DNA of 33,338 bases, from UHGV virus genome UHGV-0373465, one strand, 5' to 3'. The notes beneath the pieces were generated by a model. The model searched no databases. It was given only the letters and a program-made list of their open reading frames with translations, and had not been told where the DNA came from. Numbering within the stretch: position 1 is the stretch's first letter; each line of letters starts with the position of its first letter. This document shows, in pieces, positions 3,439 through 27,926 of the stretch. A program made the translations under genes and the position numbers. The stretch comes from a virus.

Positions 3439-3710
3439 GTATTCGTATTGAAATTGGCGAACGTTATGTCGTTACCAGTGACAGCTTTCAGTTTATTCTC
3501 CACGAGAAAAAGAGAGCGGAAAGCGGTAAAAACGCCGGTCAGGAATGGCTGTCGGTGGTTGGTTATTACCCGAAATTAAGCCAGCTCGTTTCCGGCATGA
3601 TGCATCACGATATTCTGACCGGAAGCGCAAAGTCTTTTGCTGATTTAAACGCGCAGGTTGAGCAACTCAGCAAGCGTTGTTCAGAGGCTTTTGGCTCATA
3701 TGGCCGTTAA
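3435..3710 (+). CDS. Hypothetical early protein (P2 orf83 position)
   Basis: 91-aa ORF directly upstream of A and overlapping it. Confidence 0.5.
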   Translation: MSIRIEIGERYVVTSDSFQFILHEKKRAESGKNAGQEWLSVVGYYPKLSQLVSGMMHHDILTGSAKSFADLNAQVEQLSKRCSEAFGSYGR

Positions 3711-5985
3711 AGCCTCCGGGCGTTTTGTCCCTCCATCAGCATTTGCCGCAGGCACCGGTAAGGCGTTTACCGGTGCTTATGCATGGAACGCGCCACGCGA
3801 GGCTGTCGGGCGCGAAAGACCCCTTACACGTGACGAGATGCGTCAGGTGCAAGGTGTTTTATCCACGATTAACCGCCTGCCTTACTTTTTGCGCTCGCTG
3901 TTTACTTCACGCTATGACTACATCCGGCGCAATAAAAGCCCGGTGCACGGGTTTTATTTCCTCACATCCACTTTTCAGCGTCGTTTATGGCCGCGCATTG
4001 AGCGCGTGAATCAGCGCCATGAAATGAACACCGACGCGTCGTTGCTGTTTCTGGCAGAGCGTGACCATTATGCGCGTCTGCCGGGGATGAATGACAAGGA
4101 ACTGAAAAAGTTTGCCGCCCGTATCTCATCGCAGCTTTTCATGATGTATGAGGAACTCTGCGATGCATGGGTTGATGCACATGGCGAGAAAGAATCGCTG
4201 TTTACGGATGAGGCTCAGGCGCATCTGTATGGTCATGTTGCTGGCGCTGCACGAGCTTTCAATATTTCCCCTCTCTACTGGAAAAAATACCGTAAAGGAC
4301 AGATGACCACGAGGCAGGCATATTCTGCCATTGCCCGTCTGTTTAACGATGAGTGGTGGACTCATCAGCTTAAAGGTCAGCGTATGCGCTGGCATGAGGC
4401 GTTACTGATTGCTGTCGGGGAGGTGAATAAAGACCGTTCTCCTTATGCCAGTAAACATGCCATTCGTGATGTGCGTGCGCGCCGCCAGGCAAATCTGGAA
4501 TTTCTTAAATCGTGTGACCTTGAAAACAGGGAAACCGGCGAGCGCATCGACCTTATCAGTAAGGTGATGGGAAGTATTTCTAATCCTGAAATTCGCCGGA
4601 TGGAGCTGATGAACACCATTGCCGGTATTGAGCGTTACGCCGCTGCAGAGGGTGATGTGGGGATGTTTATCACGCTGACCGCGCCGTCAAAGTATCACCC
4701 GACACGTCAGGTCGGAAAAGGCGAAAGTAAAACCGTTCAGCTTAATCACGGCTGGAACGATGAGGCATTTAATCCAAAGGATGCGCAGCGTTATCTCTGC
4801 CGTATCTGGAGCCTGATGCGCACGGCATTCAAGGATAATGATTTACAGGCCTACGGTTTGCGTGTCGTCGAGCCACACCACGACGGAACGCCGCACTGGC
4901 ATATGATGCTTTTTTGTAATCCACGCCAGCGTAACCAGATTATCGAAATCATGCGTCGCTATGCGCTCAAAGAGGATGGTGACGAAAGAGGAGCCGCGCG
5001 AAACCGTTTTCAGGCAAAGCACCTTAACCGGGGCGGTGCTGCGGGATATATCGCGAAATACATTTCAAAAAATATCGACGGCTATGCACTGGATGGTCAG
5101 CTCGATAACGATACCGGTAAGCCGCTTAAAGATACTGCCGCGGCTGTTACCGCATGGGCGTCAACGTGGCGCATCCCGCAATTTAAAACGGTTGGACTGC
5201 CGACAATGGGGGCTTACCGTGAACTACGCAAATTGCCTCGCGGCGTCAGTATTGCTGATGAGTTTGACGAACGCGTCGAGGCTGCTCGCGCTGCCGCAGA
5301 CAGTGGTGATTTTGCGTTGTATATCAGCGCGCAGGGTGGGGCAAATGTCCCGCGCGATTGTCAGACTGTCAGGGTTGCCCGTAGCCCGTCGAGTGACGTT
5401 AACGAGTACGAGGAAGAAGTCGAGAGAGTGGTCGGTATTTACGCGCCGCATCTCGGCGCGCGTCATATTCATATCACCAGAACGACGGACTGGCGCATTG
5501 TGCCGAAAGTTCCGGTCGTTGAGCCTTTGACTTTAAAAAGCGGCATCGCCGCGCCTCGGAGTCCTGTCAATAACTGTGGAAAGCTCACCGGCAGTGATAC
5601 TTCGTTACCGGCTCCCACACCTTATGAACATGCCGCAGCCGTGCTTAATCTGGTTGATGACGGTGTTATCGAATGGAATGAGCCAGAGGTCGTGAGGGCG
5701 CTCAGAGGTGCATTAAAACACGAACTGAGAACACCAAATCGTCAGCAGAGAAACGGAAGCCCGTTAAAACCACATGAAATAGCGCCATCGGCCAGACTGA
5801 CCCGGTCGGAACGAACGCAAATTACCCGTATCCGCGTTGACCTTGCTCAGAACGGTATCAGGCCGCAGCGATGGGAGCTTGAGGCGCTGGCGCGTGGCGC
5901 GACCGTAAATTATGACGGGAAAAAATTCACGTATCCGGTCGCTGATGAGTGGCCGGGATTCTCAACAGTAATGGAGTGGACATAA
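3700..5985 (+). CDS. A: Rolling-circle replication initiator endonuclease gpA
   Basis: ORF 3658-5985; the internal ATG at 3700 gives 761 aa, the recalled P2 gpA length; contains a rolling-circle Rep-like motif (GAAGYIAKYISK). Confidence 0.85.
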   Translation: MAVKASGRFVPPSAFAAGTGKAFTGAYAWNAPREAVGRERPLTRDEMRQVQGVLSTINRLPYFLRSLFTSRYDYIRRNKSPVHGFYFLTSTFQRRLWPRIERVNQRHEMNTDASLLFLAERDHYARLPGMNDKELKKFAARISSQLFMMYEELCDAWVDAHGEKESLFTDEAQAHLYGHVAGAARAFNISPLYWKKYRKGQMTTRQAYSAIARLFNDEWWTHQLKGQRMRWHEALLIAVGEVNKDRSPYASKHAIRDVRARRQANLEFLKSCDLENRETGERIDLISKVMGSISNPEIRRMELMNTIAGIERYAAAEGDVGMFITLTAPSKYHPTRQVGKGESKTVQLNHGWNDEAFNPKDAQRYLCRIWSLMRTAFKDNDLQAYGLRVVEPHHDGTPHWHMMLFCNPRQRNQIIEIMRRYALKEDGDERGAARNRFQAKHLNRGGAAGYIAKYISKNIDGYALDGQLDNDTGKPLKDTAAAVTAWASTWRIPQFKTVGLPTMGAYRELRKLPRGVSIADEFDERVEAARAAADSGDFALYISAQGGANVPRDCQTVRVARSPSSDVNEYEEEVERVVGIYAPHLGARHIHITRTTDWRIVPKVPVVEPLTLKSGIAAPRSPVNNCGKLTGSDTSLPAPTPYEHAAAVLNLVDDGVIEWNEPEVVRALRGALKHELRTPNRQQRNGSPLKPHEIAPSARLTRSERTQITRIRVDLAQNGIRPQRWELEALARGATVNYDGKKFTYPVADEWPGFSTVMEWT

Positions 5986-6437
5986 TGGCAAAAATTCACG
6001 AGGTAAAGCTGCACGCAAAATATTTCGACCTTGTGCTGGAAGGAAAGAAACGTGCAGAGTTCCGGAAAAATGACCGTAATTATGAGCGCGGGGACACGTT
6101 GATTTTGTATGAATGGGTGCAGGGTGTGTATACGGGGCGAAATGTTGAAGCCCGGATAACAGATGTTACTGACCTGTCAGACTGGCTGGAAGATTATGTC
6201 TTGCTAAGTATTGAGCTGCTTAATACAGGCGCATATGAGATTGTGAACTGGAAAGAACTTAGTGAGCGTGGCCTGGTATTCAGAATTAATCATGAAATTA
6301 TGCATCAGCTCGGCCTTGCTGTTATGTATGAACCAGAGACGGGGATGTCTGGCGGGGCAATGGTTGCCACGGATGGAGCATGGAACTATTCAGATGAACA
6401 GATGGAGCGTGCACAGCAAAACGGGTGGCTTGGATAA
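5985..6437 (+). CDS. ASCH/DUF3850-like (PUA-fold) domain protein with C-terminal extension
   Basis: ATG at 5985 overlaps the A stop (TAATG) and has a GGAG Shine-Dalgarno; N-terminus KIHEVKLHAKYFDLVLEGKKRAEFRKNDRNYERGDTLIL resembles DUF3850/ASCH proteins; first gene of the accessory island. Confidence 0.55.
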   Translation: MAKIHEVKLHAKYFDLVLEGKKRAEFRKNDRNYERGDTLILYEWVQGVYTGRNVEARITDVTDLSDWLEDYVLLSIELLNTGAYEIVNWKELSERGLVFRINHEIMHQLGLAVMYEPETGMSGGAMVATDGAWNYSDEQMERAQQNGWLG

Positions 6438-6885: not shown

Positions 6886-7824
6886 ATGCCAACTGTAGTT
6901 TCACTTTTTTCTGGATGTGGTGGTTCTGATGCGGGAGTTTTGAACGCAGGTTTCAATGTGCTTATGGCAAATGATATTTTGCCTTACGCAAGGGACGTTT
7001 ACTTAGAAAACCATCCTGAAACTGACTACATTTTGGGCGATATCTCAGGGCTCCAGTCGTTCCCTTCTGCTGAGTTGCTCATCGGATGCTATCCTTGCCA
7101 AGGATTTAGTCAAGGTGGGGCAAGGAAGGCAGATAGAAAGATTAATACACTATATTTAGAGTTTGCCCGTGCTTTGAGTAAAATTAAGCCAAAAGCATTC
7201 ATTGTAGAGAATGTCTCTGGTATGGTAAGGCGTAACTTTGAGCATTTATTAAAGGATCAATTCAAAGTTTTCGAAGAAGCAGGTTATACAGTAAGCTCGC
7301 AAATTCTGAATGCGTCCCATTATGGGGTATCCCAAGATAGGAAGCGAATCTTTATCGTAGGAATACGAAAGGACTACGGTATTACATACAAATTTCCAAA
7401 ACCAACACATGGTGATGGTTTGACACCATATTCCACAATTCGTGATGCTATTGGGCATATGCCTGTTTGGCCTGTTGGCGAGTTTTATGACGCCGATTTT
7501 CATTGGTATTATCTATCGCGAAACCGTAGGCAAGATTGGGATCAGATATCTAAAACAATTGTTGCAAATCCTAGACATATGCCTCTACATCCAATAAGTC
7601 CAACATTAGAAAAATTGGGACCTGATAAGTGGCAATTTACTTCGGATGCACCAGCTCGTAGGTTTAGCTATCGAGAGGCTGCTATTTTACAAGGTTTTGG
7701 GGATTTAATTTTCCCAGAAACTGAACGGGCTTCTATTAATATGAAATATACTGTGGTAGGTAATGCAGTACCGCCTCCATTGTTTGAGGCGGTTGCTAGA
7801 AACCTTCCAGATTTATGGGATTAA
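6886..7824 (+). CDS. DNA (cytosine-5)-methyltransferase, compact (312 aa)
   Basis: C5-MTase motifs in canonical order: FSGCGG (motif I, AdoMet binding), GCYPCQGFSQGG (motif IV, catalytic PCQ), FIVENVSGM (motif VI, ENV), QDRKRIFIVG (motif VIII), VVGNAVPPPL (motif X). AT-rich codon usage unlike the phage backbone. Confidence 0.85.
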   Translation: MPTVVSLFSGCGGSDAGVLNAGFNVLMANDILPYARDVYLENHPETDYILGDISGLQSFPSAELLIGCYPCQGFSQGGARKADRKINTLYLEFARALSKIKPKAFIVENVSGMVRRNFEHLLKDQFKVFEEAGYTVSSQILNASHYGVSQDRKRIFIVGIRKDYGITYKFPKPTHGDGLTPYSTIRDAIGHMPVWPVGEFYDADFHWYYLSRNRRQDWDQISKTIVANPRHMPLHPISPTLEKLGPDKWQFTSDAPARRFSYREAAILQGFGDLIFPETERASINMKYTVVGNAVPPPLFEAVARNLPDLWD

Positions 7825-8858
7825 GCAGCGATCGCGCTGGAAGGATCAAGGATGATATCTAGATAGCTAATATTTTGACTGTGATCAATATTATCAGATG
7901 CTCTGGTTAAATTGATTAATCTTAGGCGATCAACAAAAATAGCATCGCCTAACTTATTTTTATGCGCCCACTCACCATCTATCCATCGTAGATCTTGAGG
8001 TAAGAAATAATAAGTTGCCCATCGGTGAGCTACGGGGAATTTACTGTAGAGCATCGCAGGTGAGGCCTCAAGCTGCTTCGCTTCCCACTCTTCTTGAGAA
8101 CAGCCACACTGAACAAAAGAAATAGGGATGGCATCTCGTTGATCTCCCATTGGATGCCAGGCAATTATGTCAAGGCCTCCGTCACCACTATTTCCTCGAC
8201 TGAAATCTCGTTCTTTGAAGTTCGCTGTGCAACGGATATCGGAAGCAATACTCTTAAATTTATTATATAGAGTTCCAGTGTAAGGGGCCGCTTGACCACC
8301 AGAAGCCCAGCATGCTTTTATTATGCTACCGCTAGGCATTAGGCTTTCAAAAATAGGTAAACTAATTAGTTCAAAACTGCGCGTTATCTCTCTTCTGCTC
8401 ATTATGTTGACATATTTTATGTTAGCACAGATTAGTAAAGCTAAATATAGTCTTTCTAAATGTTCCAGTGGCTTTTCTGATATATCACGTAACTCTACAG
8501 TATCGTTGTCTTCTGATAAAGTAAAAGGGTAACTATCCCCAAATAAATCAATGCGTTGTCGTATGAAGCCTATCGCATAGCTCCACTTTCTGTCAGTATA
8601 TGCTCGACTAACACTTCGTTTTGTTCTCTTGCGTACAGGCGTATCATTTTCATCATCAACATCATAAACGCCCTCTTCTTCTGCTTCATCTGTTTCAGCT
8701 AGTACTGCTTCGGGTTGAGCTTGCAGTGTGCTATATAGGTCTCCTCGACTGAATGACCTGTCGATATTAGTTAAGGCCAATATCTCAATATAATCAGCCC
8801 ATAAATAAGGCTCATTAGAAGGCATTGAATCAAGATTTGTAATCATAATCTCAATCAT
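7821..8858 (-). CDS. Hypothetical protein, distal gene of minus-strand operon; candidate effector/nuclease (unproven)
   Basis: ORF 7821-8930; start likely at ATG 8858 or 8846, just after a GGGAGG and 3-8 nt from the upstream gene's stop. Its stop codon overlaps the MTase stop by 2 nt (convergent). Acidic stretch AETDEAEEEGVYDVDDENDT; no confidently recognised domain. Confidence 0.6.
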   Translation of the reverse strand: MIEIMITNLDSMPSNEPYLWADYIEILALTNIDRSFSRGDLYSTLQAQPEAVLAETDEAEEEGVYDVDDENDTPVRKRTKRSVSRAYTDRKWSYAIGFIRQRIDLFGDSYPFTLSEDNDTVELRDISEKPLEHLERLYLALLICANIKYVNIMSRREITRSFELISLPIFESLMPSGSIIKACWASGGQAAPYTGTLYNKFKSIASDIRCTANFKERDFSRGNSGDGGLDIIAWHPMGDQRDAIPISFVQCGCSQEEWEAKQLEASPAMLYSKFPVAHRWATYYFLPQDLRWIDGEWAHKNKLGDAIFVDRLRLINLTRASDNIDHSQNISYLDIILDPSSAIAA

Positions 8859-9924
8859 CCTCCCTTTTGCTTCTGATCTGATTTCTAATATTTTTTGACA
8901 TCTCAAAAATTTCAGATGCAGCCTCTTCATGCTCTAATGTTAATTCTTTAGCTTTAAGTAGCATATCCCAAACTACTCTTAATTTAACACTAGCTGCGTT
9001 TAGTGCTTTATCTAATGCTTCTCTTTCTCCGCTGGTATATAGATATGCTTCATCCAAGTTTGAACTTTTCATGAGAATTTCAATTGCTTCGGGTTTCTCA
9101 ACCACTGCTGCAATATCTTTTATTCTTCGAGACTCACCGATGATGGTTCTACCTTGTTGGTCAGGCACAAAAAACCAAGAGAATAAACGCTTAAGGTTTT
9201 CTTCATTTAAATTTGGGTCTAAAAAATCCTTTTTATCCTGTAGACCTAACCAGTTTGTGATTTTTGAATATCCCAAAGCTGTGGTTATATATGAAAATTC
9301 CACGTCAGAAGCCTTCATGGGTAAATTAAAAAACTCATGGTCATGCGCGACTTCATATAAGTTCAGTGCAGTGAGAAGTGTTGCAACATAATGTGGTTTA
9401 CTCCCAATCTCACGAGCCAGATTTTTTAATACTATCTCTTTAGGCTCATGTGAATAAAAAGTATCACATAACTCTTTAAGGTATTTGGCTTTAGATAATG
9501 AGTCCCATTCTTTGACCCCAGTTATATGACGATAACCGATATATCTCAGTACATCCTCTCGGTTTTCATAAATGATGCAGGGAAGCTTCTTAGGTTTATT
9601 GGTAGTATCATCAATGATTTCTTGCACACCTTTAAGTTTTCTTTTTGGAGGAAGCAGATCTCCATTGAGCAACTTTACAGCAGCTAAGCGTCTGTTTCCC
9701 TCAACCACGATGTAGTTTCCATTGCTTTTTACTGCCAATAAAGGTTCTCCAGGAAAGTAACCTTGCTGACCGATTGATAGCATTAGATCGTGGACACTTT
9801 CGTCATCTAACATTTCCTCAATGACTGTTGCAGCGTTACTGGCATCATTGAGACGAAAGAAACGTGGGTTTTTAGGGTCAAAATCAAGCTTATTTGTCTC
9901 AATTTCTACGATTTTGTTATCCAT
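8851..9924 (-). CDS. ParB/Srx-like N-terminal domain protein (DUF262/DndB-like superfamily candidate)
   Basis: ORF 8851-10056; start preferred at ATG 9924 (GAGG Shine-Dalgarno 5 nt upstream; alternatives 9981 and 10056). N-terminal region has the ParB-type signature YIVVEGNRRLAAVKLL about 75 residues in; the C-terminal two-thirds are helical and unassigned. Confidence 0.6.
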   Translation of the reverse strand: MDNKIVEIETNKLDFDPKNPRFFRLNDASNAATVIEEMLDDESVHDLMLSIGQQGYFPGEPLLAVKSNGNYIVVEGNRRLAAVKLLNGDLLPPKRKLKGVQEIIDDTTNKPKKLPCIIYENREDVLRYIGYRHITGVKEWDSLSKAKYLKELCDTFYSHEPKEIVLKNLAREIGSKPHYVATLLTALNLYEVAHDHEFFNLPMKASDVEFSYITTALGYSKITNWLGLQDKKDFLDPNLNEENLKRLFSWFFVPDQQGRTIIGESRRIKDIAAVVEKPEAIEILMKSSNLDEAYLYTSGEREALDKALNAASVKLRVVWDMLLKAKELTLEHEEAASEIFEMSKNIRNQIRSKREDD

Positions 9925-10151
9925 CTTAACCTCATGGGATGATGTAAATATCTTTTGGGGGATGCTTGATAAAACATCCATATTTGATCGTTTGCAGCGC
10001 ATTTGATACATCGAAGTGTACAAAAATGCTGGGCATAACTCTGCATTAAAATGCATTCACATTCAAAGAACTATTTTCTCGTTGGACATTTAGCCTAAGA
10101 GAGTTTGGACGGCTTTTGGAATTGCATCAAAACCGACCCATGAAGCGGGCG

Positions 10152-10170
10152 GGCGAGGCGGGGAAAGCAC
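10152..10170. other. cos: cos cohesive-end site (P2-type 19-nt GGCGAGGCGGGGAAAGCAC)
   Basis: Exact 19-mer that I recall as the P2 cohesive end, about 170 bp beyond the 3' end of portal gene Q, the expected position. Confidence 0.6.
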
Positions 10171-10308
10171 TGCGCGCTGGCGGTGGTGCTGATTTTATTT
10201 TTTCAGCGTCTGAGCGCGTCGTGATGGCGTTTAGTCGGCCTGCCGGGGCGTTGGTGTGTCTGCGGGGTGTTTTGTACAGTGGCGAACGTGTGAGGGCGTG
10301 ATGACGGG

Positions 10309-10334
10309 GTGTAAAAAAGCCGCCCGCAGGCGGC
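10309..10334 (-). terminator. Rho-independent terminator downstream of Q (minus strand)
   Basis: GC-rich hairpin gccgcc-cgca-ggcggc preceded on the plus strand by an A6 run (a T-run on the minus strand), directly after the Q stop at 10340. Confidence 0.55.
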
Positions 10335-10339
10335 GATGT

Positions 10340-11374
10340 TCAGCCGTTGTCAGTGTCCAGTGAGTAGTTTTTAAATCGGATGACCTCCTGACCGAGCCAG
10401 CCGTTTATCTCGCGGATCCTGTCCTGTAACGGGATAAGCTCATTGCGGACAAAGACCTTTGCTACTTTCTCAATATCACCCAGCGACCCGACGTTCTCCG
10501 GCTTGCCGCCCATCAACTGAAAGGGGATGCGGTGCGCGTCCAGCAGGTCAGCGGCGCTGGCTTTTTTGATATTAAAAAAATCGTCCTTCGTTGCCACTTC
10601 ACTGAGCGGGATAATTTTAATGCCGTCAGCTTTCCCCTGCGGGGCATAGAGAAACAGGTTTTTAAAGTTGTTGCGGCCTTTCGACTTCACCATGTTTTCG
10701 CGAAGCATTTCGATATCGTTGCGATCCTGCACGGCATCAGTGACGTACATGATATATCCGGCATGAGCGCCGTTTTCGTAATACTTGCGGCGGAACAGCG
10801 TGGCCGACTCATTCAGCCAGGCAGAGTTAAGGGCGCTGAGATATTCCGGCAGACCGTACAGCTCCTGATTAATATCCGGCTCCAGCAGGTGAAACACGGA
10901 GCCGGGCGCGAAAGGTGTCGGCTCGTTGAAGGACGGCACCCACCAGTAAACATCCTCCTCCACGCCACGGCGGGTATATTTTGCCGGTGAGGTTTCCAGT
11001 CTGATGACCTTACCGGTGGTGCTGTAACGCTTTTCCAGAAACGCATTACCGAATACCAGAAAATCCAGCACAAAGCGGCTGAAATCCTGCTGAGAAAGCC
11101 ACGGGTGTGGGATAAACGTTGAGGCCAGAATGTTACGTTTGACGTAAATCGGTGAGCTGTGATGCACGGCAGCACGCAGGCTTTTTGCCAGACCGGTAAA
11201 GCTGACCGGTGGCTCATACCATCTGCCGTTACTGATGCACTCGACGTAATCCAGAATGTCACGGCGGTCGAGTACCGGCACCGGCTCACCAAAGGTGAAT
11301 GCCTCCATTTTCGGGGCGCTGGCGGTCATTTTTTTTGCCGCAGGTTGCGGTGTTTTCCCTTTTTTCTTGCTCAT
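10340..11374 (-). CDS. Q: Portal protein gpQ
   Basis: 344 aa, identical to recalled P2 gpQ length; adjacent to and co-oriented with the terminase large subunit. Confidence 0.85.
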   Translation of the reverse strand: MSKKKGKTPQPAAKKMTASAPKMEAFTFGEPVPVLDRRDILDYVECISNGRWYEPPVSFTGLAKSLRAAVHHSSPIYVKRNILASTFIPHPWLSQQDFSRFVLDFLVFGNAFLEKRYSTTGKVIRLETSPAKYTRRGVEEDVYWWVPSFNEPTPFAPGSVFHLLEPDINQELYGLPEYLSALNSAWLNESATLFRRKYYENGAHAGYIMYVTDAVQDRNDIEMLRENMVKSKGRNNFKNLFLYAPQGKADGIKIIPLSEVATKDDFFNIKKASAADLLDAHRIPFQLMGGKPENVGSLGDIEKVAKVFVRNELIPLQDRIREINGWLGQEVIRFKNYSLDTDNG

Positions 11375-13146
11375 CAGTAAAACTCCAGAATGGTGGATGT
11401 CAGCGGGGTGCTGATACCGGCGGTGAGTGGCTCATTTAACAGGGCGTGCATGGTCGCCCAGGCGAGGTCGGCGTGGCTGGCTTCCTCGCTACGGCTGGCC
11501 TCATAGGTGGCGCTGCGTCCGCTGCTGGTCATGGTCTTGCGGATAGCCATAAACGAGCTGGTGATGTCGGTGGCGCTGACGTCATATTCCAGACAGCCAC
11601 GGCGGATGACGTCTTTTGCCTTGAGCACCATTGCGGTTTTCATTTCCGGCGTGTAGCGGATATCGCGCGCGGCGGGATAGAACGAGCGCACGAGCTGGAA
11701 CACGCCGACACCGAGGCCGGTGGCATCAATTCCGATGTATTCGACGTTGTATTTTTCGGTGAGTTTGCGGATGGATTCCGCCTGAGTGGCAAAGTCCATG
11801 CCTTTCCACTGGTGACGCTCAAGTATTCTGAATTTACCTCCGGCCACCACCGGCGGTGCCAGCACCACGCATCCGGCGCTGTCGCCACGGTGTGACGGGT
11901 CGTAACCAATCCATACCGGGCGGGAGCCGAACGGATTGGCGGCAAACGGCGCATAGTCTTCCCATTCTTCCAGCGTGTCGACCATGCAGCGTTGCAGCTC
12001 CTCGAACGGGAACACCGACGCCTTGTCGTCAACAAATTCACACATGAACAGGTTTTTAAAATCGTCGGCGCTGTTTTCACGTTTGAGCTGCTCAATGTCG
12101 AACAGCGTGCAGCCGCCTTTCAGGGCGTCCTCAATGGTGACAATCTGCCGCCACTGGCCGTCCGCACAGAGAAGACCTCCGGCAAGGGCGTTATGACTGA
12201 CGTCGATTTCCACGCGTTCGGCGGCGCTGGCGCGTCCCCGGTTGAACAGTTCACCCGACCAGAACGGGTAGGCGTCGTGCGCCAGCGTGGACGGGGTGGA
12301 GAAATAGGTCGAGCGCAGGTGACTCTGTGAGGCCATACCTGATGCCACCTTACGCAGTACCTGAAAATTCGGGATCCAGAAAATCTCATCGACGTACAGG
12401 TCGCCGTTATGACTCTGCGCGGTGTTGGAGTTGGTGCCGAGAAAAATCAGTTTTGCGCCGTTATTGCCCAGGACAATCGGGTCACCGGTCAGGTCAACGT
12501 CAACCAGACGGGCAAAGGCGATGATGTATTCGCGGAACACATACGCCTGCGTTTTACTGGCCGACAGAAAAATCTGGTTATGACCGGTTTTCAGGGCACG
12601 CAGCAGCGCCTCGCGGGAAAAATAAAACGTCGCGCCAATCTGGCGGGATTTCAGGATATCGCGGATGCGGTGCTCAAGCCCGGCACGATACCAGTGCAGC
12701 TGATAGTCGAAAGACTGCTCAAAGAAAATCTGCTCCAGCTTTTCGATGGCTTCGTCACTGAAAAAATTCTTTTTCGGTTTGCGCCGTCCGCCTTTGTTAC
12801 GGTTAGCGACGTTCGGATTAAGGTCTGCCTCGTTGCCGGTCTGGCTGTAGCGGTTGACCCGTGCCAGTCGTTCAATCTGGCGTCCCAGCAGGTCAATTTC
12901 CTTGAAGTCACCGCCGGTTTTCTGTGGTTTGATGATGAGCTGGGTCAGCCGCGCTTCCAGACTCATTTCGACACGGCTGATGGGGGCAACGCTGTCCCAG
13001 CCGTCGCGCTGTTTCCAGCTCTGCACCGTCGGGCGTTTCATCTGCAACATGGCGGCAATCTGCGGCACGGAAAACCCCTGCCAGTACAGCAGCGCCGCCT
13101 GACGACGCGGGTCGTGTAAAAGAGTGGTGTCTGTGGTGATGGTCAT
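11374..13146 (-). CDS. P: Terminase large (ATPase) subunit gpP
   Basis: ORF 11374-13176; ATG at 13146 with a GAGG Shine-Dalgarno gives 590 aa, the recalled P2 gpP length. Confidence 0.85.
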   Translation of the reverse strand: MTITTDTTLLHDPRRQAALLYWQGFSVPQIAAMLQMKRPTVQSWKQRDGWDSVAPISRVEMSLEARLTQLIIKPQKTGGDFKEIDLLGRQIERLARVNRYSQTGNEADLNPNVANRNKGGRRKPKKNFFSDEAIEKLEQIFFEQSFDYQLHWYRAGLEHRIRDILKSRQIGATFYFSREALLRALKTGHNQIFLSASKTQAYVFREYIIAFARLVDVDLTGDPIVLGNNGAKLIFLGTNSNTAQSHNGDLYVDEIFWIPNFQVLRKVASGMASQSHLRSTYFSTPSTLAHDAYPFWSGELFNRGRASAAERVEIDVSHNALAGGLLCADGQWRQIVTIEDALKGGCTLFDIEQLKRENSADDFKNLFMCEFVDDKASVFPFEELQRCMVDTLEEWEDYAPFAANPFGSRPVWIGYDPSHRGDSAGCVVLAPPVVAGGKFRILERHQWKGMDFATQAESIRKLTEKYNVEYIGIDATGLGVGVFQLVRSFYPAARDIRYTPEMKTAMVLKAKDVIRRGCLEYDVSATDITSSFMAIRKTMTSSGRSATYEASRSEEASHADLAWATMHALLNEPLTAGISTPLTSTILEFY

Positions 13147-13319
13147 GAATACCTCGCCGTGATGAATACACGGCAAGGCTACTGAGTCGCGCCCCGCGAT
13201 TCGCTAAGGTGCTGTTGTGTCAGTGATAAGCCATCCGGGACTGATGGCGGAGGATGCGCATCGTCGGGAAACTGATGCCGACATGTGACTCCTCTAATCA
13301 CTATTCAGGACTCCTGACA

Positions 13320-18531: not shown

Positions 18532-18961
18532 TGCCGTCACGGTGCTGAAAACCAGTCCAGAGATGCTGCGGATATTCGTGGATAACGGGAGTATTGCCTC
18601 CACACTGGCGACGTCGTTGTCATTCGAAAAGCGTTACACGCTCAATGTGATTGTGACCGACTTTACCGGTGATTTTGACCTGCTCATCGTGCCGGTGCTG
18701 GCATGGCTGCGGGAAAATCAGCCCGACATCATGACCACCGACGAAGGCCAGAAAAAGGGCTTCACGTTTTATGCAGACATCAACAATGACAGCAGCTTTG
18801 ATATCAGTATCAGCCTGATGCTGACCGAGCGCACGCTGGTCAGTGAGGTGGACGGCGCACTGCATGTGAAGAATATCCCGGAACCCCCGCCGCCGGAGCC
18901 GGTCACCCGCCCGATGGAGCTTTATATCAATGGCGAACTGGTGAGCAAGTGGGATGAATGA
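18494..18961 (+). CDS. R: Tail completion protein gpR
   Basis: 155 aa, equal to recalled P2 gpR; gene order. Confidence 0.8.
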   Translation: MLKPDSLRRALTDAVTVLKTSPEMLRIFVDNGSIASTLATSLSFEKRYTLNVIVTDFTGDFDLLIVPVLAWLRENQPDIMTTDEGQKKGFTFYADINNDSSFDISISLMLTERTLVSEVDGALHVKNIPEPPPPEPVTRPMELYINGELVSKWDE

Positions 18962-19406
18962 GTTTAAGCGTTTTGAAGACCGGCTGACCGGACTGATTGA
19001 GTCGCTGTCACCGTCAGGGCGTCGGCGGCTGAGTGCAGAGCTGGCGAAGCGTCTGCGGCAGAGTCAGCAGCGTCGGGTGATGGCACAGAAAGCCCCGGAC
19101 GGCACACCCTACGCGCCACGCCAGCAGCAGAGCGCCAGAAAAAAGACCGGTCGTGTTAAGCGAAAAATGTTTGCGAAACTTATCACCAGTCGTTTTTTGC
19201 ATATCCGCGCCAGCCCGGAACAGGCATCAATGGAATTTTACGGCGGGAAGTCGCCGAAAATCGCCAGTGTGCATCAGTTCGGTCTGTCGGAAGAAACCCG
19301 GAAAGACGGTAAGAAAATTGATTATCCGGCGCGTCCTCTGCTCGGCTTTACCGGTGAGGATGTGCAGATGATTGAAGAGATTATCCTGACTCACCTTGAG
19401 CGTTAG
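18954..19406 (+). CDS. S: Tail completion protein gpS
   Basis: 150 aa, equal to recalled P2 gpS; overlaps R by 8 nt. Confidence 0.8.
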   Translation: MNEFKRFEDRLTGLIESLSPSGRRRLSAELAKRLRQSQQRRVMAQKAPDGTPYAPRQQQSARKKTGRVKRKMFAKLITSRFLHIRASPEQASMEFYGGKSPKIASVHQFGLSEETRKDGKKIDYPARPLLGFTGEDVQMIEEIILTHLER

Positions 19407-19477: not shown

Positions 19478-20263
19478 TTATGAGTGATTTTTATTTGATG
19501 CTTTGTATTCTAAAACCTTCTTATTGGCGTAAAAGAATTTTGTATATGACAGGAATATAACCAGACCTGAAGTGAAATAGACGAGGGATAGTATTAATAA
19601 TGCTTTTTTGTGACTGTTATTATCTTTAATCTCCTGGCTTAACCATTCGGAGTCCTCCTCGTTTAGCTGTAAGAGCTTATTGCAGGCGATCTCAGGAAGT
19701 GTGTCTTTTATAAATACGTTTTGCAGTCTCTTGCAATCGGCAAGGCTATAAGTTTTATTAAATTCAACTGCTTTATTTTTGAAGGATAAAAGAACTTTGT
19801 CACTATAAACATAGTACATCATGTTTTTATATGGTATGCCTATGGCATCCCTTACTATAACGGATTGTTCGTTGTGTATATAACATGCGAAGAGAATATA
19901 AATAATGCTGGACAGAATTACAATTATTGTTTTAATTATGTGTGGTGGTTTTGTTATGTCACCCCAGAAGCGAGTAAGAAAAAAATACGATGTTTTTAGT
20001 TTTCCATCAATCAGCCCCTGCTGTATCATTCTCACATCTTCGATGCCTGATACATTGATTCCGTTAATTATTTTAAATAGTTGAATGTCGCGCCATTTTT
20101 TGTCGAGCATTTTTAACTTTCTGTCTGAATACTCAAAATTGAAATAATGTGCAATAAACCTCATAAGATTACTTTTACCAAAGGTAATAAATGTTAATGC
20201 TATTAATAAAAATAGATACAAAGAGATAAACCACCACGCATTAGTCACATTATCACTGAACAT
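19478..20263 (-). CDS. Hypothetical three-TM membrane protein (moron at the P2 orf30 position)
   Basis: 261 aa, very AT-rich, antisense to the flanking late genes; predicted transmembrane helices at the N-terminus (WWFISLYLFLLIALTFITF), middle (IIKTIIVILSSIIYILFACYI) and C-terminus (ALLILSLVYFTSGLVIFL). Confidence 0.65.
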   Translation of the reverse strand: MFSDNVTNAWWFISLYLFLLIALTFITFGKSNLMRFIAHYFNFEYSDRKLKMLDKKWRDIQLFKIINGINVSGIEDVRMIQQGLIDGKLKTSYFFLTRFWGDITKPPHIIKTIIVILSSIIYILFACYIHNEQSVIVRDAIGIPYKNMMYYVYSDKVLLSFKNKAVEFNKTYSLADCKRLQNVFIKDTLPEIACNKLLQLNEEDSEWLSQEIKDNNSHKKALLILSLVYFTSGLVIFLSYTKFFYANKKVLEYKASNKNHS

Positions 20264-20346
20264 TACGCTCTCCTCGAATGTTGTATGGTCGTTCTACAAA
20301 TGAATCCAGATAGCATAACTTTTATATATTGTGCAATCTCACACGC

Positions 20347-20982
20347 ATGAACACTCTCGCAAATATTCAGGAACTCGCGCGCGCACTGCGCAACATGATT
20401 CGTACCGGCCTTGTCGTCGAAACCAACCTTAAAGCCGGTCGCTGCCGTGTGCAGACCGGTGGCATGTGCACTGACTGGCTTCAGTGGCTGACCCATCGTG
20501 CCGGACGTTCGCGCACATGGTGGGCACCTTCCGTGGGGGAACAGGTGCTGATTCTGGCTGTGGGCGGTGAACTCGACACGGCGTTCGTTCTGCCGGGGAT
20601 TTATTCCGGCGATAACCCCGCGCCGTCTGCGTCGGCGGATGCCCTGCATATCCGTTTCCCTGACGGGGCGGTGATTGAGTATGAACCCGAAACCAGTGCA
20701 CTCACGGCAAGCGGAATTAAAACGGCCAGCGTGACGGCTTCTGATTCTGTTACTGCCACGGTGCCGGTGGTCATGGTGAAAGCATCAACCCGCGTCACCC
20801 TGGACACCCCGGAGGTGGTCTGCACCAACAGGCTGATTACCGGCACGCTGGAAGTGCAGAAGGGCGGGACGATGCGCGGCAACATTGAACACACCGGCGG
20901 TGAACTCTCATCAAACGGTAAGGTACTGCATACCCATAAACACCCCGGCGACAGCGGCGGCACAACCGGGAGCCCTCTATGA
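20347..20982 (+). CDS. V: Baseplate spike/assembly protein gpV
   Basis: ORF 20329-20982; ATG 20347 gives 211 aa, equal to recalled P2 gpV. Confidence 0.8.
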   Translation: MNTLANIQELARALRNMIRTGLVVETNLKAGRCRVQTGGMCTDWLQWLTHRAGRSRTWWAPSVGEQVLILAVGGELDTAFVLPGIYSGDNPAPSASADALHIRFPDGAVIEYEPETSALTASGIKTASVTASDSVTATVPVVMVKASTRVTLDTPEVVCTNRLITGTLEVQKGGTMRGNIEHTGGELSSNGKVLHTHKHPGDSGGTTGSPL

Positions 20983-24773: not shown

Positions 24774-25301
24774 ATGCAGCATTTGATAAATATAACGGCA
24801 GGTAATCCAAAAACGGTTGAACAATATCAATTGACAAAGGACTTTGATGTTGTCTGGTTTTTTACAGAAGATGGTAAGAACTGGTACGAAGAACAAAAGT
24901 ATTTTGCTGATGACACGATAAAAATAGCGTACGACAAAGATAATATTATCCGCTATGTAGAAAAGGATGTGACAGCTATCAGACCGGATGGATTAAGTGT
25001 TGTTGAAGTGCCGGATATTACTGCTAACCGACGGGCGGACATTTCAGGGAACTGGATGTTTAAGGACGGCAAAGTGATTAAACGCATTTATACGGCAGAG
25101 GAATTACAACAGCAGGCAGAAATTCGGAAAGCCAGACTTCTTGCAGATGCTGAATCCGTGATTTTGCCGCTGGAGCGCGCTGTCAGGCTGAATATGGCAA
25201 CAGATGAGGAGCGCAGCCGACTGGAAGCATGGGAACGCTACAGCGTTCTGGTCAGTCGTGTGGATCCTGCAAATCCTGAATGGCCGGAAATGCCGCAATA
25301 A
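24774..25301 (+). CDS. G: Tail fibre assembly chaperone gpG
   Basis: 175 aa, equal to recalled P2 gpG; directly downstream of H; AT-rich like the H C-terminus. Confidence 0.8.
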
Positions 25302-25516: not shown

Positions 25517-26416
25517 ATGAGTGGTATTCGTATAACTCAGGCTATTGATAACAATCAGATTTTAGTAAATGTAAATACTTTTAATTATAGTGTTAATCCC
25601 TATCCACTCAAATGTCCTGACCCAAATTGCTCTGCTCATTTGGTGTATGTCAAAAGCCATATTCGTCGGAGTTTTAATAAAACCTTGCATATCCCCGCCT
25701 TCTTTAGACTGGAAAAAAATTTCACGCATGACAAATTATGCCAGTATGGAACTTCAGGATTGAATACAATTTATGCAAGTGATTCCAGTCATGATATCAG
25801 CCGTGCGCTTGCCACAGGTAATAATATATTCCGTATACATATACTCGATGAAGATGATATCTCTAAATTAAGCAGAAAAGCTGCAGCTATGCAGGCAAAT
25901 CCACCTTCTGATACTACAGACCGCGTTTATGTCAAGAGAGGTCGGAAAGCCCCTTATGTGAAGAACATGGATAGCTTACGGGAGATCTATGAATATGGAA
26001 AAGCTCACCCCAACAAGAGAAACAGCATAAAAATTGTTACTGGAACAAGTACTGTAACGTGGTCTGATTTTTTCTATGAAACAACGCAGTTAGAACGATT
26101 GTCAACTTACCTCCAGAAAGTAAAAATAGCTCAGGTTGCTGTAATTATGAAAGTGCATGTGGCGAGAATCCCTATGGCGAAATTTAATTATCGACACTTC
26201 ATTGAAGGTTCGCCAATGAGGATAAAAGGGGGCTTTAATATATATCCTACGATTCAATTAGGAAATGTTACTCCAAAATTATTTCCGTTGAGTAGCATTG
26301 TCATGGTACTCGGTAAATTTACTATTCCAACAAATAGAAAAATGATAATGGATCCAATATTTGAGCGTGAAGTCAGAACCATAGTTTCTAGTGAAGAGCA
26401 AGTGCTAATTCTTTGA
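25517..26416 (+). CDS. Hypothetical protein at the P2 Z/fun slot (possible Z/fun-like superinfection-exclusion gene)
   Basis: 299 aa, strongly AT-rich, own RBS (GGAGGAG before ATG 25517), flanked by about 215 bp and 320 bp non-coding spacers between G and FI; no recognisable catalytic motif. Confidence 0.6.
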   Translation: MSGIRITQAIDNNQILVNVNTFNYSVNPYPLKCPDPNCSAHLVYVKSHIRRSFNKTLHIPAFFRLEKNFTHDKLCQYGTSGLNTIYASDSSHDISRALATGNNIFRIHILDEDDISKLSRKAAAMQANPPSDTTDRVYVKRGRKAPYVKNMDSLREIYEYGKAHPNKRNSIKIVTGTSTVTWSDFFYETTQLERLSTYLQKVKIAQVAVIMKVHVARIPMAKFNYRHFIEGSPMRIKGGFNIYPTIQLGNVTPKLFPLSSIVMVLGKFTIPTNRKMIMDPIFEREVRTIVSSEEQVLIL

Positions 26417-26735: not shown

Positions 26736-27926
26736 ATGAGTGACTATCATCACGGCGTGCAGGTGCTGGAGATTAACGACGGCACCCGCGTCATTTCCAC
26801 CGTATCCACCGCCATTGTTGGCATGGTCTGCACGGCCAGCGATGCGGATGCGGAAATCTTCCCCCTCAATAAACCAGTGCTGATTACCAATGTGCAGAGC
26901 GCAATTGCAAAGGCCGGTAAAAAAGGCACGCTGGCGGCATCGTTGCAGGCCATCGCCGACCAGTCAAAACCGGTCACCGTTGTCGTGCGTGTGGAAGACG
27001 GCACCGGCGACGACGAGGAAACGAAACTTGCGCAGACCGTTTCCAATATCATCGGCACCACCGACGAAAACGGTCAGTACACCGGACTGAAAGCCCTGCT
27101 GGCGGCGGAGTCGGTAACCGGTGTTAAACCGCGTATTCTCGGCGTGCCGGGGCTGGATACCAAAGAGGTGGCTGTTGCACTGGCATCAGTCTGTCAGAAG
27201 CTGCGCGCTTTCGGATATATCAGCGCATGGGGCTGTAAAACCATTTCCGAGGTGAAAGCCTATCGCCAGAATTTCAGCCAGCGTGAGCTGATGGTCATCT
27301 GGCCGGATTTCCTCGCATGGGATACGGTCACCAGCACCACCGCCACCGCGTATGCCACCGCCCGTGCGCTGGGTCTGCGTGCCAGAATCGACCAGGAGCA
27401 GGGCTGGCATAAAACGCTGTCCAATGTCGGGGTGAACGGTGTTACCGGCATCAGCGCATCTGTATTCTGGGATTTGCAGGAGTCCGGCACCGATGCTGAC
27501 CTGCTTAACGAGTCAGGCGTCACTACGCTGATTCGCCGCGACGGTTTCCGATTCTGGGGTAACCGTACCTGCTCTGATGACCCGCTGTTCCTCTTTGAAA
27601 ACTACACCCGCACCGCGCAGGTGCTGGCCGACACGATGGCTGAGGCGCACATGTGGGCGGTGGACAAGCCCATCACCGCAACGCTGATTCGCGACATCGT
27701 TGACGGCATCAATGCCAAATTCCGTGAGCTGAAAACAAACGGCTATATCGTGGATGCGACCTGCTGGTTCAGCGAAGAATCCAACGATGCGGAAACCCTT
27801 AAGGCCGGAAAACTGTATATCGACTACGACTATACCCCGGTGCCTCCTCTTGAAAACCTGACCCTGCGCCAGCGTATTACCGATAAATACCTGGCAAATC
27901 TGGTCACCTCGGTTAACAGCAATTAA
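26736..27926 (+). CDS. FI: Contractile tail sheath protein gpFI
   Basis: 396 aa, equal to recalled P2 gpFI; followed by the tube gene. Confidence 0.85.
   Translation: MSDYHHGVQVLEINDGTRVISTVSTAIVGMVCTASDADAEIFPLNKPVLITNVQSAIAKAGKKGTLAASLQAIADQSKPVTVVVRVEDGTGDDEETKLAQTVSNIIGTTDENGQYTGLKALLAAESVTGVKPRILGVPGLDTKEVAVALASVCQKLRAFGYISAWGCKTISEVKAYRQNFSQRELMVIWPDFLAWDTVTSTTATAYATARALGLRARIDQEQGWHKTLSNVGVNGVTGISASVFWDLQESGTDADLLNESGVTTLIRRDGFRFWGNRTCSDDPLFLFENYTRTAQVLADTMAEAHMWAVDKPITATLIRDIVDGINAKFRELKTNGYIVDATCWFSEESNDAETLKAGKLYIDYDYTPVPPLENLTLRQRITDKYLANLVTSVNSN

What the first reader, a model, noticed from the sequence alone, without database searches (positions are those of the whole stretch)
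8851..9924. ParB/Srx-fold protein in a phage defence slot
Seen in sequence: the motif IVVEGNRRLAAVKLL preceded by a beta-rich N-terminal segment resembles the ParB/sulfiredoxin/DUF262 NTP-binding signature; the remaining roughly 240 residues are helical with no obvious motif. Established knowledge: ParB-fold domains act as CTP/NTP-dependent clamps or nucleases, and DUF262/DndB-like members occur in GmrSD, Dnd and Ssp type defence systems. Inference: this protein may be the DNA-sensing or NTP-switch component of the module, coupled to the gene at 7821-8858.
Basis: partly seen in the sequence, partly recalled or inferred. Interest (0 to 1): 0.6.

Follow-up and report, generated by a model that had tools for sequence, protein, structure and literature searches.

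The report
ParB-fold restriction module in P2 prophage
The flagged gene does encode a ParB-fold protein, and it is one part of a widespread but untested three-gene module (DNA methyltransferase, ParB-like protein, restriction-type nuclease) that most likely acts as a restriction-modification-like anti-phage system carried by P2-type prophages.

Summary
Window 8851-9924 (-) encodes a 357-aa protein whose N-terminus is a ParB/Srx NTP-binding fold (EGNRR box), followed by a ParB-type HTH domain. Its closest solved structures are the CTP-clamp proteins ParB, Noc and KorB, not DUF262/DndB.

It is not a partition ParB. Its stop overlaps the start of a 341-345-aa partner (7821-8858, -). I show the partner to be a winged-helix + PD-(D/E)xK restriction-endonuclease-fold protein with a conserved active site.

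The pair is adjacent in 77/80 genome loci across many phyla and in 45/46 viral loci. A DNA methyltransferase lies within two genes in about 84% of genome loci and beside the pair in 46/46 viral loci. Here it is the convergent C5-MTase at 6886-7824; distant clades carry a D12 N6A-MTase.

Those D12 MTases are true PD-lambda-5_B homologs. The ParB-like protein shares about 255 aligned columns with PD-lambda-5_A, the ParB-HEPN protein of an experimentally validated E. coli defence system.

The trio is therefore best read as a split, nuclease-armed relative of PD-lambda-5: a methylation-guarded restriction-like system in the P2 gpA/portal hotspot. Rousset 2022 catalogued the locus as "hypothetical"; I found no test of it. 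The mechanism is inferred, not shown.

The parts
8851..9924 (-). ParB-like protein, 357 aa. It has an N-terminal ParB/Srx NTP-binding fold with FDPxNPR (res 15-21), the helix-loop LMLSIGQQGYFPGEP (res 47-61), the EGNRR GxxR P-motif (res 75-79) and GYRHITG (res 130-136). A ParB-type HTH covers about res 140-190, and the C-terminal 150 aa or so are helical with no assignment.
   Evidence: EGNRR is present in 145/149, NPR in 137/149 and [YF]RH in 142/149 family representatives that were not selected by motif.
7821..8858 (-). Partner effector, 345 aa as annotated; the probable true start is ATG 8846 (341 aa). It has an N-terminal winged-helix domain and a C-terminal PD-(D/E)xK nuclease domain. Putative active site: E163, D230, Q250 and K261, plus conserved D226, D239 and D310-R311-x-R313.
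6886..7824 (+). C5 cytosine DNA methyltransferase, 312 aa. It is convergent with the nuclease gene and their 3' ends overlap by 4 bp. This is the presumed self-protecting modification component.
   Evidence: Pfam PF00145 9.9e-62 and TIGR00675 1.8e-54. It aligns over its full length, including the target-recognition region, to M.HaeIII (E 1.6e-48). A homolog lies beside the pair in 47/80 genome loci and 46/46 viral loci.
9925..10339 (-). Intergenic region upstream of the ParB-like gene, between it and the portal gene. It is the presumed promoter/regulatory region of the two-gene operon.
   Evidence: Position only. The sigma-70 scan found no minus-strand site here. In one E. coli genome an IS2 is inserted in this interval. 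Function was not tested.

Best explanation
The gene is the DNA-binding, nucleotide-binding subunit of a three-gene, methylation-guarded restriction-like defence module carried as cargo in the P2 gpA/portal hotspot.

Shown:
- The ParB-like protein (ParB NTP-binding fold + HTH) and a winged-helix/PD-(D/E)xK nuclease form a translationally coupled gene pair.
- The pair is inherited together across phyla, almost always beside a DNA methyltransferase.
- The methyltransferase family is swapped between clades: C5 here, D12 N6A or N4/N6 elsewhere.
- The family is homologous to PD-lambda-5, a validated ParB-HEPN + D12 MTase defence system.

Inferred:
- The methyltransferase marks the lysogen's DNA.
- The ParB-like protein binds unmodified incoming DNA through its HTH.
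- It then uses an NTP-dependent conformational switch, by analogy with ParB/KorB clamp closure, to recruit or license the partner nuclease, which cuts the foreign DNA.
- The identity of the nucleotide is unknown.
- The Glu of the canonical GERR box is an invariant Asn here. From memory, the Gln of the NPxQPR box is also an Asn. The protein may therefore bind NTP but hydrolyse it slowly or differently.
For: Synteny:
- The ParB-like gene and partner are adjacent and co-directional in 77/80 genome loci from Proteobacteria, Bacteroidota, Actinobacteria, Chloroflexi, Firmicutes and others. The 3 exceptions are truncated or degraded.
- Starting from the partner instead, 45/46 viral loci have the ParB-like gene upstream and 46/46 have the Dcm.
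- An MTase lies within two genes in 61/73 scored loci: 43 C5, 17 D12 and 1 N4/N6.
- The ParB stop overlaps the annotated partner start by 8 nt.

The nuclease looks active:
- It has the restriction-endonuclease fold.
- E163, D230 and Q250 are present in at least 95% of 74 orthologs.
- The catalytic lysine occupies one of two mutually exclusive positions.

The NTP pocket is kept: the EGNRR arginines are present in 145/149 representatives not selected by motif. The equivalent R-to-A change abolishes NTP binding in other ParB-fold proteins (PMC12704722).

The putative recognition helix differs by MTase clade: IGS[KR]xxYVxxLL with C5 and IGDxHRTVQRLFR with D12.

Link to a validated system:
- D12 MTases beside the distant-clade pairs hit PD-Lambda-5_B at 7.7e-114 and 2.7e-97.
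- L067 carries PD-Lambda-5_A homolog, MTase, short ParB-like gene and nuclease in a row.
- hhalign gives 97% probability over 255 columns between this family and that PD-lambda-5_A homolog.
- PD-lambda-5 protects broadly against phages and was described as a compacted RM+Abi system (PMC9519451).

Context:
- The module is a low-GC island (0.37-0.40) in the P2 hotspot.
- It lies beside a P2-type portal in 36/46 viral loci.
- The full locus is in 104 of 5426 complete E. coli genomes.
- Three of the listed E. coli genomes carry an IS element in the locus: two in the nuclease gene, one upstream of the operon, none in the MTase.
Against: - No experiment exists on this trio. Defence, DNA cleavage, NTP binding and protein-protein contact are all inferred.
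- About 12 of 73 loci show no MTase within two genes. Some are truncated contigs, but L027, L044, L048, L052, L054, L059 and L061 are not. The coupling to methylation is therefore not absolute.
- The partner has a SdaI-like wHTH + nuclease layout and could be a self-sufficient type II enzyme.
- The association between HTH type and MTase type is confounded by phylogeny.
- The canonical Box III (ENxxR) is not recognisable, and the Glu of the GERR box is replaced, so a ParB-like hydrolysis cycle is uncertain.
- No co-fold of the two proteins could be run.
Confidence: 0.6

Rival explanations
1. Classical type II R-M with an unusual controller. The partner alone is the sequence-specific restriction endonuclease, and the ParB-like protein is a KorB/VirB-like DNA-binding regulator. 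It would be a functional analogue of C proteins, timing nuclease expression after the module enters a new host.
Against: The protein is 357 aa and is more conserved than the nuclease (for example 64% vs 48%, and 55% vs 42%). Its NTP pocket is nearly invariant. In PD-lambda-5 the same ParB module is fused directly to the effector domain, which argues for a role in the effector complex rather than in transcription. No repeated operator-like sites were found in the island.
Confidence: 0.15
2. Toxin/antitoxin-like or abortive-infection pair. The nuclease is a toxin held inactive by the ParB-like protein and released on infection. The methyltransferase would be an independent neighbour, for example a phage anti-restriction or orphan MTase.
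For: The two-gene overlapping operon sits in a prophage hotspot. IS insertions hit the nuclease gene. A minority of loci lack a nearby MTase. PD-lambda-5 was described as RM+Abi.
Against: An MTase is adjacent in about 84% of genome loci and 46/46 viral loci, with three different MTase families across phyla. That is far above chance and hard to explain if the MTase were independent. The MTase diverges in step with the pair within clades.
Confidence: 0.1
3. The ParB-like protein serves the methyltransferase, or phage DNA handling, rather than the nuclease. For example it could load on DNA to make methylation processive, as suggested for phage ParB-MTase fusions, or activate a DNA-modifying enzyme as ParB does for phage 5mYOX dioxygenases.
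For: ParB-fold/MTase fusions are common in prophages (PMC12704722). A ParB homolog is a required activator of a phage T-dioxygenase on dsDNA (PMC13229309).
Against: The invariant tight linkage is ParB-like gene to nuclease: same strand, overlapping or abutting. The position and orientation of the MTase vary (upstream, downstream, convergent or co-directional), and its family is swapped.
Confidence: 0.07
4. Bona fide partition ParB of a plasmid-like or phage replicon.
For: The protein has ParB NTD + HTH architecture and its structural neighbours are partition ParBs.
Against: There is no ParA in the window or in 80 related loci. No parS-like repeats were found. The N-terminus has no (L/F/I)G(K/R)G(L/F/I) ParA-binding motif (read directly from the sequence). 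The TIGR00180 score of 30.5 is below the 58.45 cutoff. The host element is an integrated P2-type prophage. The constant neighbours are a nuclease and an MTase.
Confidence: 0.01

Closest known systems
PD-lambda-5 (Vassallo et al. 2022, E. coli; A = ParB-fold + HEPN/DUF4145-like protein, B = D12 N6-adenine methyltransferase)
   Same: The ParB module is homologous: PADLOC PD-Lambda-5_A hits at 2.5e-24, and hhalign gives 97% probability over 255 columns including the EGNRR and (S/Y)RH boxes. Both are obligately linked to a DNA methyltransferase and are carried on mobile elements in E. coli. In distant clades the MTase beside our pair is a true PD-Lambda-5_B homolog (E 8e-114), and in L067/L078 both kinds of effector flank one MTase.
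   Different: The C-terminal HEPN/DUF4145 effector region is absent here; coverage is only 1-158 of 440 profile positions. A separate winged-helix + PD-(D/E)xK nuclease gene takes its place. In the window the MTase is a C5 cytosine enzyme, not D12. PADLOC has no model for the partner. The mechanism of PD-lambda-5 itself is unknown.
Canonical CTP-dependent ParB-family clamps (ParB/Spo0J, Noc, KorB)
   Same: The N-terminal NTP-binding fold and the following HTH DNA-binding domain are shared. The GxxR arginines are conserved. These are the best structural matches.
   Different: There is no ParA, parS or ParA-binding peptide. GERR is GNRR here, with an invariant Asn in place of the Glu. Box III (ENxxR) is replaced by G(Y/F)RHxxG. 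The C-terminal domain is different. The gene neighbours are a nuclease and an MTase.
[not shown]
   Same: An MTase sits convergent with a nuclease-fold gene of about 340 aa. The nuclease has the restriction-endonuclease fold with conserved acidic, Gln and Lys residues, and a catalytic residue has moved within the fold, as is known for the Cfr10I/NgoMIV group.
   Different: A third, obligatory ParB-fold NTP-binding protein is present, which classical type II systems lack. There is no sequence similarity to any solved restriction enzyme. The recognition site and cleavage are unknown.
DUF262/DndB-type ParB-fold proteins in defence (GmrSD/BrxU, SspE, DndB)
   Same: These share the ParB/Srx superfamily NTP-binding fold and are used in DNA-modification-aware defence.
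ParB-dependent phage thymine dioxygenases (5mYOX176/ParB176; PMC13229309)
   Same: A non-partition ParB homolog, encoded next to a DNA-acting enzyme, works as that enzyme's cognate activator on dsDNA. This is a precedent for ParB as a licensing subunit.
   Different: The partner enzyme there is a dioxygenase, not a nuclease. That ParB lacks an obvious DNA-binding domain, and its NTP-site mutants kept function.

Membership tests
ParB/Srx (ParB-CTPase fold) superfamily | N-terminal ParB/sulfiredoxin fold | tested here: met
   [not shown]
ParB/Srx (ParB-CTPase fold) superfamily | GxxR phosphate-binding motif (Box II) with conserved arginine | tested here: met
   EGNRR aligns to GERR of Spo0J in the profile-PDB alignment. 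It is present in 145/149 representatives not selected by motif.
ParB/Srx (ParB-CTPase fold) superfamily | Binds a nucleoside triphosphate | not testable with these tools
   This needs DRaCALA or ITC. Specificity cannot be predicted from sequence or from AlphaFold3 (PMC12704722).
Partition ParB (ParABS) | Cognate ParA ATPase gene and N-terminal ParA-binding motif (L/F/I)G(K/R)G(L/F/I) | tested here: not met
   No ParA is present in the window or in 80 related loci. The motif is absent from the N-terminus MDNKIVEIETNKLDFDPKNPRFF (read from the sequence).
Partition ParB (ParABS) | parS centromere repeats nearby; TIGR00180 score above cutoff | tested here: not met
   The island has no significant repeat family. 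TIGR00180 scores 30.5 bits against a 58.45 cutoff.
PD-lambda-5 | A protein: ParB-fold N-terminal and middle region | tested here: met
   There are 24 PD-Lambda-5_A model hits, the best at 2.5e-24. hhalign to a full-length A homolog gives 97% probability over 255 columns.
PD-lambda-5 | A protein: C-terminal HEPN/DUF4145-like effector region in the same chain | tested here: not met
   Matches stop at about position 160 of 440-500 profile positions. The protein is 357 aa with a different helical C-terminus, and the effector is a separate gene.
PD-lambda-5 | B protein: D12-class N6-adenine methyltransferase | tested here: not met
   The window MTase is C5 (PF00145). The feature is met only in the distant clade (L063 and L067: PD-Lambda-5_B at 2.7e-97 and 7.7e-114).
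PD-lambda-5 | Anti-phage protection when expressed | not testable with these tools
   I found no test of this locus. Rousset 2022 catalogues it only as 'DNA_methylase + hypothetical + hypothetical'.
Type II restriction-modification system | Adjacent DNA methyltransferase and endonuclease genes inherited together | tested here: met
   The 3' ends are convergent and overlapping in the window. An MTase lies within two genes in 61/73 genome loci and beside the pair in 46/46 viral loci.
Type II restriction-modification system | Endonuclease with an intact catalytic site | tested here: met
   The partner has the PD-(D/E)xK fold. E163, D230 and Q250 are conserved, and a Lys occupies one of two mutually exclusive positions. 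Catalysis itself was not assayed.
Type II restriction-modification system | Sequence-specific cleavage that is blocked by the cognate methylation; no NTP-binding accessory subunit required | not testable with these tools
   This needs biochemistry. The obligatory ParB-fold subunit departs from the classical definition.
DUF262/DndB/GmrSD-type ParB-fold defence proteins | DUF262 domain (DGQ(H/Q)R box), usually with a DUF1524 nuclease | tested here: not met
   [not shown]

The most novel reading that the evidence does not exclude
The trio could define a new mechanistic class of NTP-dependent restriction enzyme. A ParB-type nucleotide-gated DNA clamp would do the surveillance: it loads at unmethylated recognition sites, closes and slides along DNA, and delivers or activates a dedicated PD-(D/E)xK nuclease. 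Functionally this would be analogous to the ATP switch of type III enzymes or the GTP-dependent McrBC, but built on the ParB-CTPase fold. PD-lambda-5 would then be the RNase-armed version of the same sensor.
Probability: 0.25. Interest if true: 0.85.

Novelty: new variant of a known kind. Interest (0 to 1): 0.62.

Why it matters
If the reading is right, three things follow.

1. It gives a concrete, genetically tractable function (restriction-like immunity) to a large orphan branch of the ParB-CTPase fold. The branch has 534 clusters at 50% identity with E<=1e-30 and 1794 with E<=1e-10. The ParB field is currently looking for roles of this fold beyond chromosome segregation.

2. It supplies a mechanistic framework for PD-lambda-5, which is validated but unexplained: a shared ParB sensor + methyltransferase core with exchangeable effectors (HEPN or PD-(D/E)xK).

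3. It adds an unannotated defence system to P2-type prophages. The system is present in about 2% of complete E. coli genomes, and PADLOC has no model for its nuclease partner. The partner also has no Pfam or NCBIfam family.

The lysine that occupies one of two mutually exclusive positions in the nuclease is also a clean natural experiment for mapping the active site.

Tried and rejected
- **Partition ParB:** rejected. There is no ParA, no parS repeats and no ParA-binding motif, and the TIGR00180 score is below cutoff.
- **Sequence searches of the partner:** Pfam, NCBIfam, PADLOC and PDB sequences all returned nothing. Only PHROGs unknown-function families matched. Fold comparison was needed.
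- **Promoter/terminator scan of the island:** counts were at or below shuffle expectation, and no minus-strand promoter was found upstream of the operon.
- **Repeat search for operator or parS-like sites:** only short two-copy chance matches.
- **Literature:** no paper mentions PDC-M38. None describes a ParB + nuclease + MTase trio. The PNAS 2025 ParB-fold survey does not cover it.
- **PDC-M38A:** the PADLOC candidate model matches residues 41-327, but its composition and status could not be traced.
- **DUF3850 gene upstream (5949-6437):** considered as a fourth component and rejected. It does not co-occur with the trio outside P2 backbones, and Rousset's table lists it with unrelated cargo.
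- **MTase specificity:** only a weak hint of a GGCC-type target, from the full-length M.HaeIII alignment. I did not try site-avoidance statistics because they would be uninformative for a self-methylating prophage.
Full report
**Setting.** The window is a P2-type prophage. The replication endonuclease gpA is at 3658-5985 (+), the portal at 10340-11374 (-), the terminase at 11374-13176 (-) and the scaffold at 13254 onward. Between gpA and the portal lies a low-GC island (GC 0.37-0.40, against 0.53-0.58 in the flanks). This is the P2 cargo/defence hotspot described by Rousset 2022 and Vassallo 2022. The island is 100% identical in E. coli SMS-3-5, and the full locus is present in 104 of 5426 complete E. 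coli genomes.

**The observation.** The ORF at 8851-9924 (-) is real. It has an ATG preceded by GAGG, encodes 357 aa, and RefSeq annotates the same coordinates. IVVEGNRRLAAVKLL is residues 72-86.

Evidence for a ParB fold is cumulative:
- Pfam ParB_N is marginal at E 0.021, but TIGR00180 gives 2.8e-7.
- PADLOC PD-Lambda-5_A N-terminal domains reach 2.5e-24.
- A 24-sequence family profile hits Spo0J structures, with GNRR aligned on GERR.
- The AlphaFold2 model (pLDDT 86.7, pTM 0.80) matches CTP/CDP-bound ParB, Noc and KorB by Foldseek over about 250 columns, that is the NTP-binding domain plus the HTH domain (E 4e-6 to 1e-4).

The protein is therefore a ParB/KorB-like NTD + HTH protein with an extra helical C-terminal region of about 150 aa.

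**The family.** An exhaustive HMM search finds 4347 clusters at 50% identity with E<=1e-3, 1794 with E<=1e-10 and 534 with E<=1e-30. In 149 representatives not chosen by motif, EGNRR occurs in 145, NPR in 137 and (Y/F)RH in 142. The GxxR arginines are thus kept, while the Glu of GERR is an invariant Asn. M. xanthus ParB structures carry Q52A and E93A substitutions and were solved with CTPgammaS or CDP bound (titles). That these two residues are the hydrolysis residues, and that N19 of the NPR box corresponds to Q52, rests on my memory of ParB sequences and not on a tool alignment. Only the GERR-to-GNRR correspondence is tool-shown. The 2025 survey of the fold shows that ParB-fold proteins can bind CTP, ATP or GTP, and that specificity cannot be predicted. 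I therefore say only "NTP".

**The partner.** The ParB stop (TGA 8853-8851) overlaps the annotated ATG 8858 of the next gene. The Shine-Dalgarno AAGGGAGG (8866-8859) and the N-termini of homologs favour ATG 8846 (341 aa). Either way the genes are coupled.

Across 74 orthologs, D22, E25, R102, Y110-P111-F112, Y138, E163, D226, D230, D239, Q250 and D310-R311-x-R313 are at least 90% conserved. The distant clade has a canonical D...QCK motif. The window's clade has QC(G/A) with a lysine nine residues downstream (K261). Lysine sits at column 252 in 17 sequences and at column 261 in 56, with both in none and neither in one. This mutually exclusive placement is what one expects of a catalytic lysine that has moved within a maintained active site. 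It argues that the protein is an active nuclease.

**The module.** In 80 genome loci fetched with the ParB-like family, the partner lies immediately downstream on the same strand in 77. The other three are truncated or degraded.

A C5 methyltransferase homologous to the window's gene at 6886-7824 is in the fetched neighbourhood in 47 loci, often with a Vsr gene. A D12 N6-adenine MTase is there in 18, and an N4/N6 MTase in one. Within two genes of the pair the tally is 61 of 73 scored loci.

The remaining loci are truncated contigs or defence-island contexts, with HsdR, ResIII helicases and EAD11.

As an independent check I searched viral contigs with the partner family. The ParB-like gene is upstream in 45 of 46 loci (the exception starts at a contig end), the Dcm is adjacent in 46 of 46, and 36 of 46 lie beside a P2-type portal whose identity to the window's ranges from 59 to 100%. 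The trio therefore moves between P2-like phages, and it also occurs outside them.

Conservation runs MTase > ParB-like > nuclease. Examples are 84/64/48% and 70/55/42%.

**Link to a validated system.** PD-lambda-5 (Vassallo 2022) is a two-gene system: "ParB/HEPN, methyltransferase". Its A protein has a ParB N-terminus and a weak DUF4145/HEPN-like C-terminus, and its B protein is a D12 MTase. It protected against nearly all phages tested, had to be studied in an mrr-deleted host, and was called a compacted RM+Abi system.

The D12 MTases beside the distant clade of our pair hit PD-Lambda-5_B at 7.7e-114 and 2.7e-97. In Dyadobacter (L067, L078) a full-length PD-lambda-5_A homolog (5.9e-42 over 8-412 of 466 positions), the MTase, the short ParB-like gene and the nuclease lie in a row. 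hhalign aligns our family with that A homolog over 255 columns at 97% probability, through the EGNRR and (S/Y)RH boxes and the middle domain.

So the ParB module plus a methyltransferase is the shared core, and the effector is exchangeable: HEPN fused in cis, or a PD-(D/E)xK nuclease in trans.

**Prior knowledge of this locus.** Rousset 2022's supplementary catalogue lists this exact gene set (WP_001143634 + WP_000570053 + WP_000368931) among P2-hotspot loci as "DNA_methylase + hypothetical + hypothetical". It also lists a variant as "DNA_methylase + hypothetical + ParBc". I found no sign that either was tested. Full-text searches found no paper describing the trio.

**How it most likely works.**
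- *Shown:* gene coupling, co-inheritance with swappable MTases, the folds, conserved catalytic and NTP-pocket residues, homology to PD-lambda-5, and location in a defence hotspot.
- *Inferred:* the MTase marks self DNA. Its full-length alignment to M.HaeIII, including the target-recognition region, hints weakly at a GGCC-type site. The ParB-like protein reads DNA through its HTH. The putative recognition helix is IGS(K/R)xxYVxxLL in C5-linked clades and IGDxHRTVQRLFR in D12-linked clades, although this is confounded by phylogeny. An NTP-dependent switch then licenses the nuclease.
- A ParB homolog acting as a cognate activator of a DNA-modifying enzyme on dsDNA has a precedent (PMC13229309).
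- Anecdotally, in the three listed E. coli genomes that carry IS elements in the locus, two insertions are in the nuclease gene, one is upstream of the operon, and none is in the MTase. This fits a costly nuclease and a retained MTase.

**Rivals.** The main alternative is that the partner is a self-sufficient type II enzyme and the ParB-like protein is a KorB-like controller, given the C-gene-like position and the KorB top hit. Against this are the protein's size, its higher conservation than the nuclease, its invariant NTP pocket, and the cis-fusion of the same module to an effector in PD-lambda-5. A toxin-antitoxin reading with an unrelated MTase is hard to square with MTase adjacency in 84-100% of loci. 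A partition role is excluded.

**Verdict.** The closest relatives, the third gene and the nature of the partner needed correcting. The finding is an untested, unnamed, widespread nuclease-armed relative of PD-lambda-5, which makes it a new variant of a known kind. It is moderately to highly interesting, because it gives a testable function to a large orphan branch of the ParB-CTPase fold.

Noticed in passing
window 25517-26416 (+): A 299-aa ORF in a low-GC patch (about 0.37-0.43). It lies between the tail-fibre assembly gene (24774-25301) and the tail sheath (26736-27926), which I take to be the P2 Z/fun cargo slot, the second P2 defence hotspot reported by Vassallo 2022. It matches only phrog_7195 (unknown function), with no Pfam or PADLOC hit. 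It is a candidate for another uncharacterised cargo or defence gene.
   Followed up: partly
window 19478-20263 (-): A 261-aa ORF at GC about 0.37. It is on the opposite strand to its neighbours, between the tail-completion gene (18954-19406) and baseplate V (20329-20982). It matches phrog_2407 (unknown function), with no Pfam or PADLOC hit. It looks like a third cargo insertion.
   Followed up: partly
window 5949-6437 (+): A DUF3850/ASCH + DUF7415 (PUA-like) protein directly after gpA. ParB-CTPase/DUF3850 fusions are reported as common in prophages (PMC12704722), and here the two folds sit as separate genes in the same hotspot. It does not co-occur with the trio outside P2 backbones, so I treated it as backbone or boundary rather than part of the module.
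   Followed up: partly
window 8846-8866: The RefSeq start of the partner gene (ATG 8858) has the Shine-Dalgarno AAGGGAGG directly abutting it. ATG 8846 has more typical spacing and matches the N-termini of most homologs and a 341-aa cluster with 292 member sequences. The annotated start is probably 4 codons too long.
   Followed up: yes
L067 3279-8054 and L078 3499-8048 (Dyadobacter): One PD-Lambda-5_B-type D12 methyltransferase is flanked on one side by a full-length PD-lambda-5_A homolog (ParB-HEPN type) and on the other by the short ParB-like + PD-(D/E)xK pair. Two ParB-based effectors apparently share a single methyltransferase.
   Followed up: partly
L011, L016, L024, L029 (about 7985-11131 in L011): In a Variovorax/Hydrogenophaga/Pelomonas/Rhizobium group, a gene of about 1040 aa for an N6_Mtase-domain protein sits between the nuclease gene and a more divergent (41% identity) C5 MTase. 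This could be a second R-M-like system or an extra modification layer. It was not resolved.
   Followed up: no
L082 and L084 (E. coli JXZ9A32M, FXCREC123); L083 (E. coli E2): IS5 is inserted in the partner nuclease gene in two genomes, and IS2 is inserted between the ParB-like gene and the portal gene in a third. The methyltransferase is intact in all three.
   Followed up: yes
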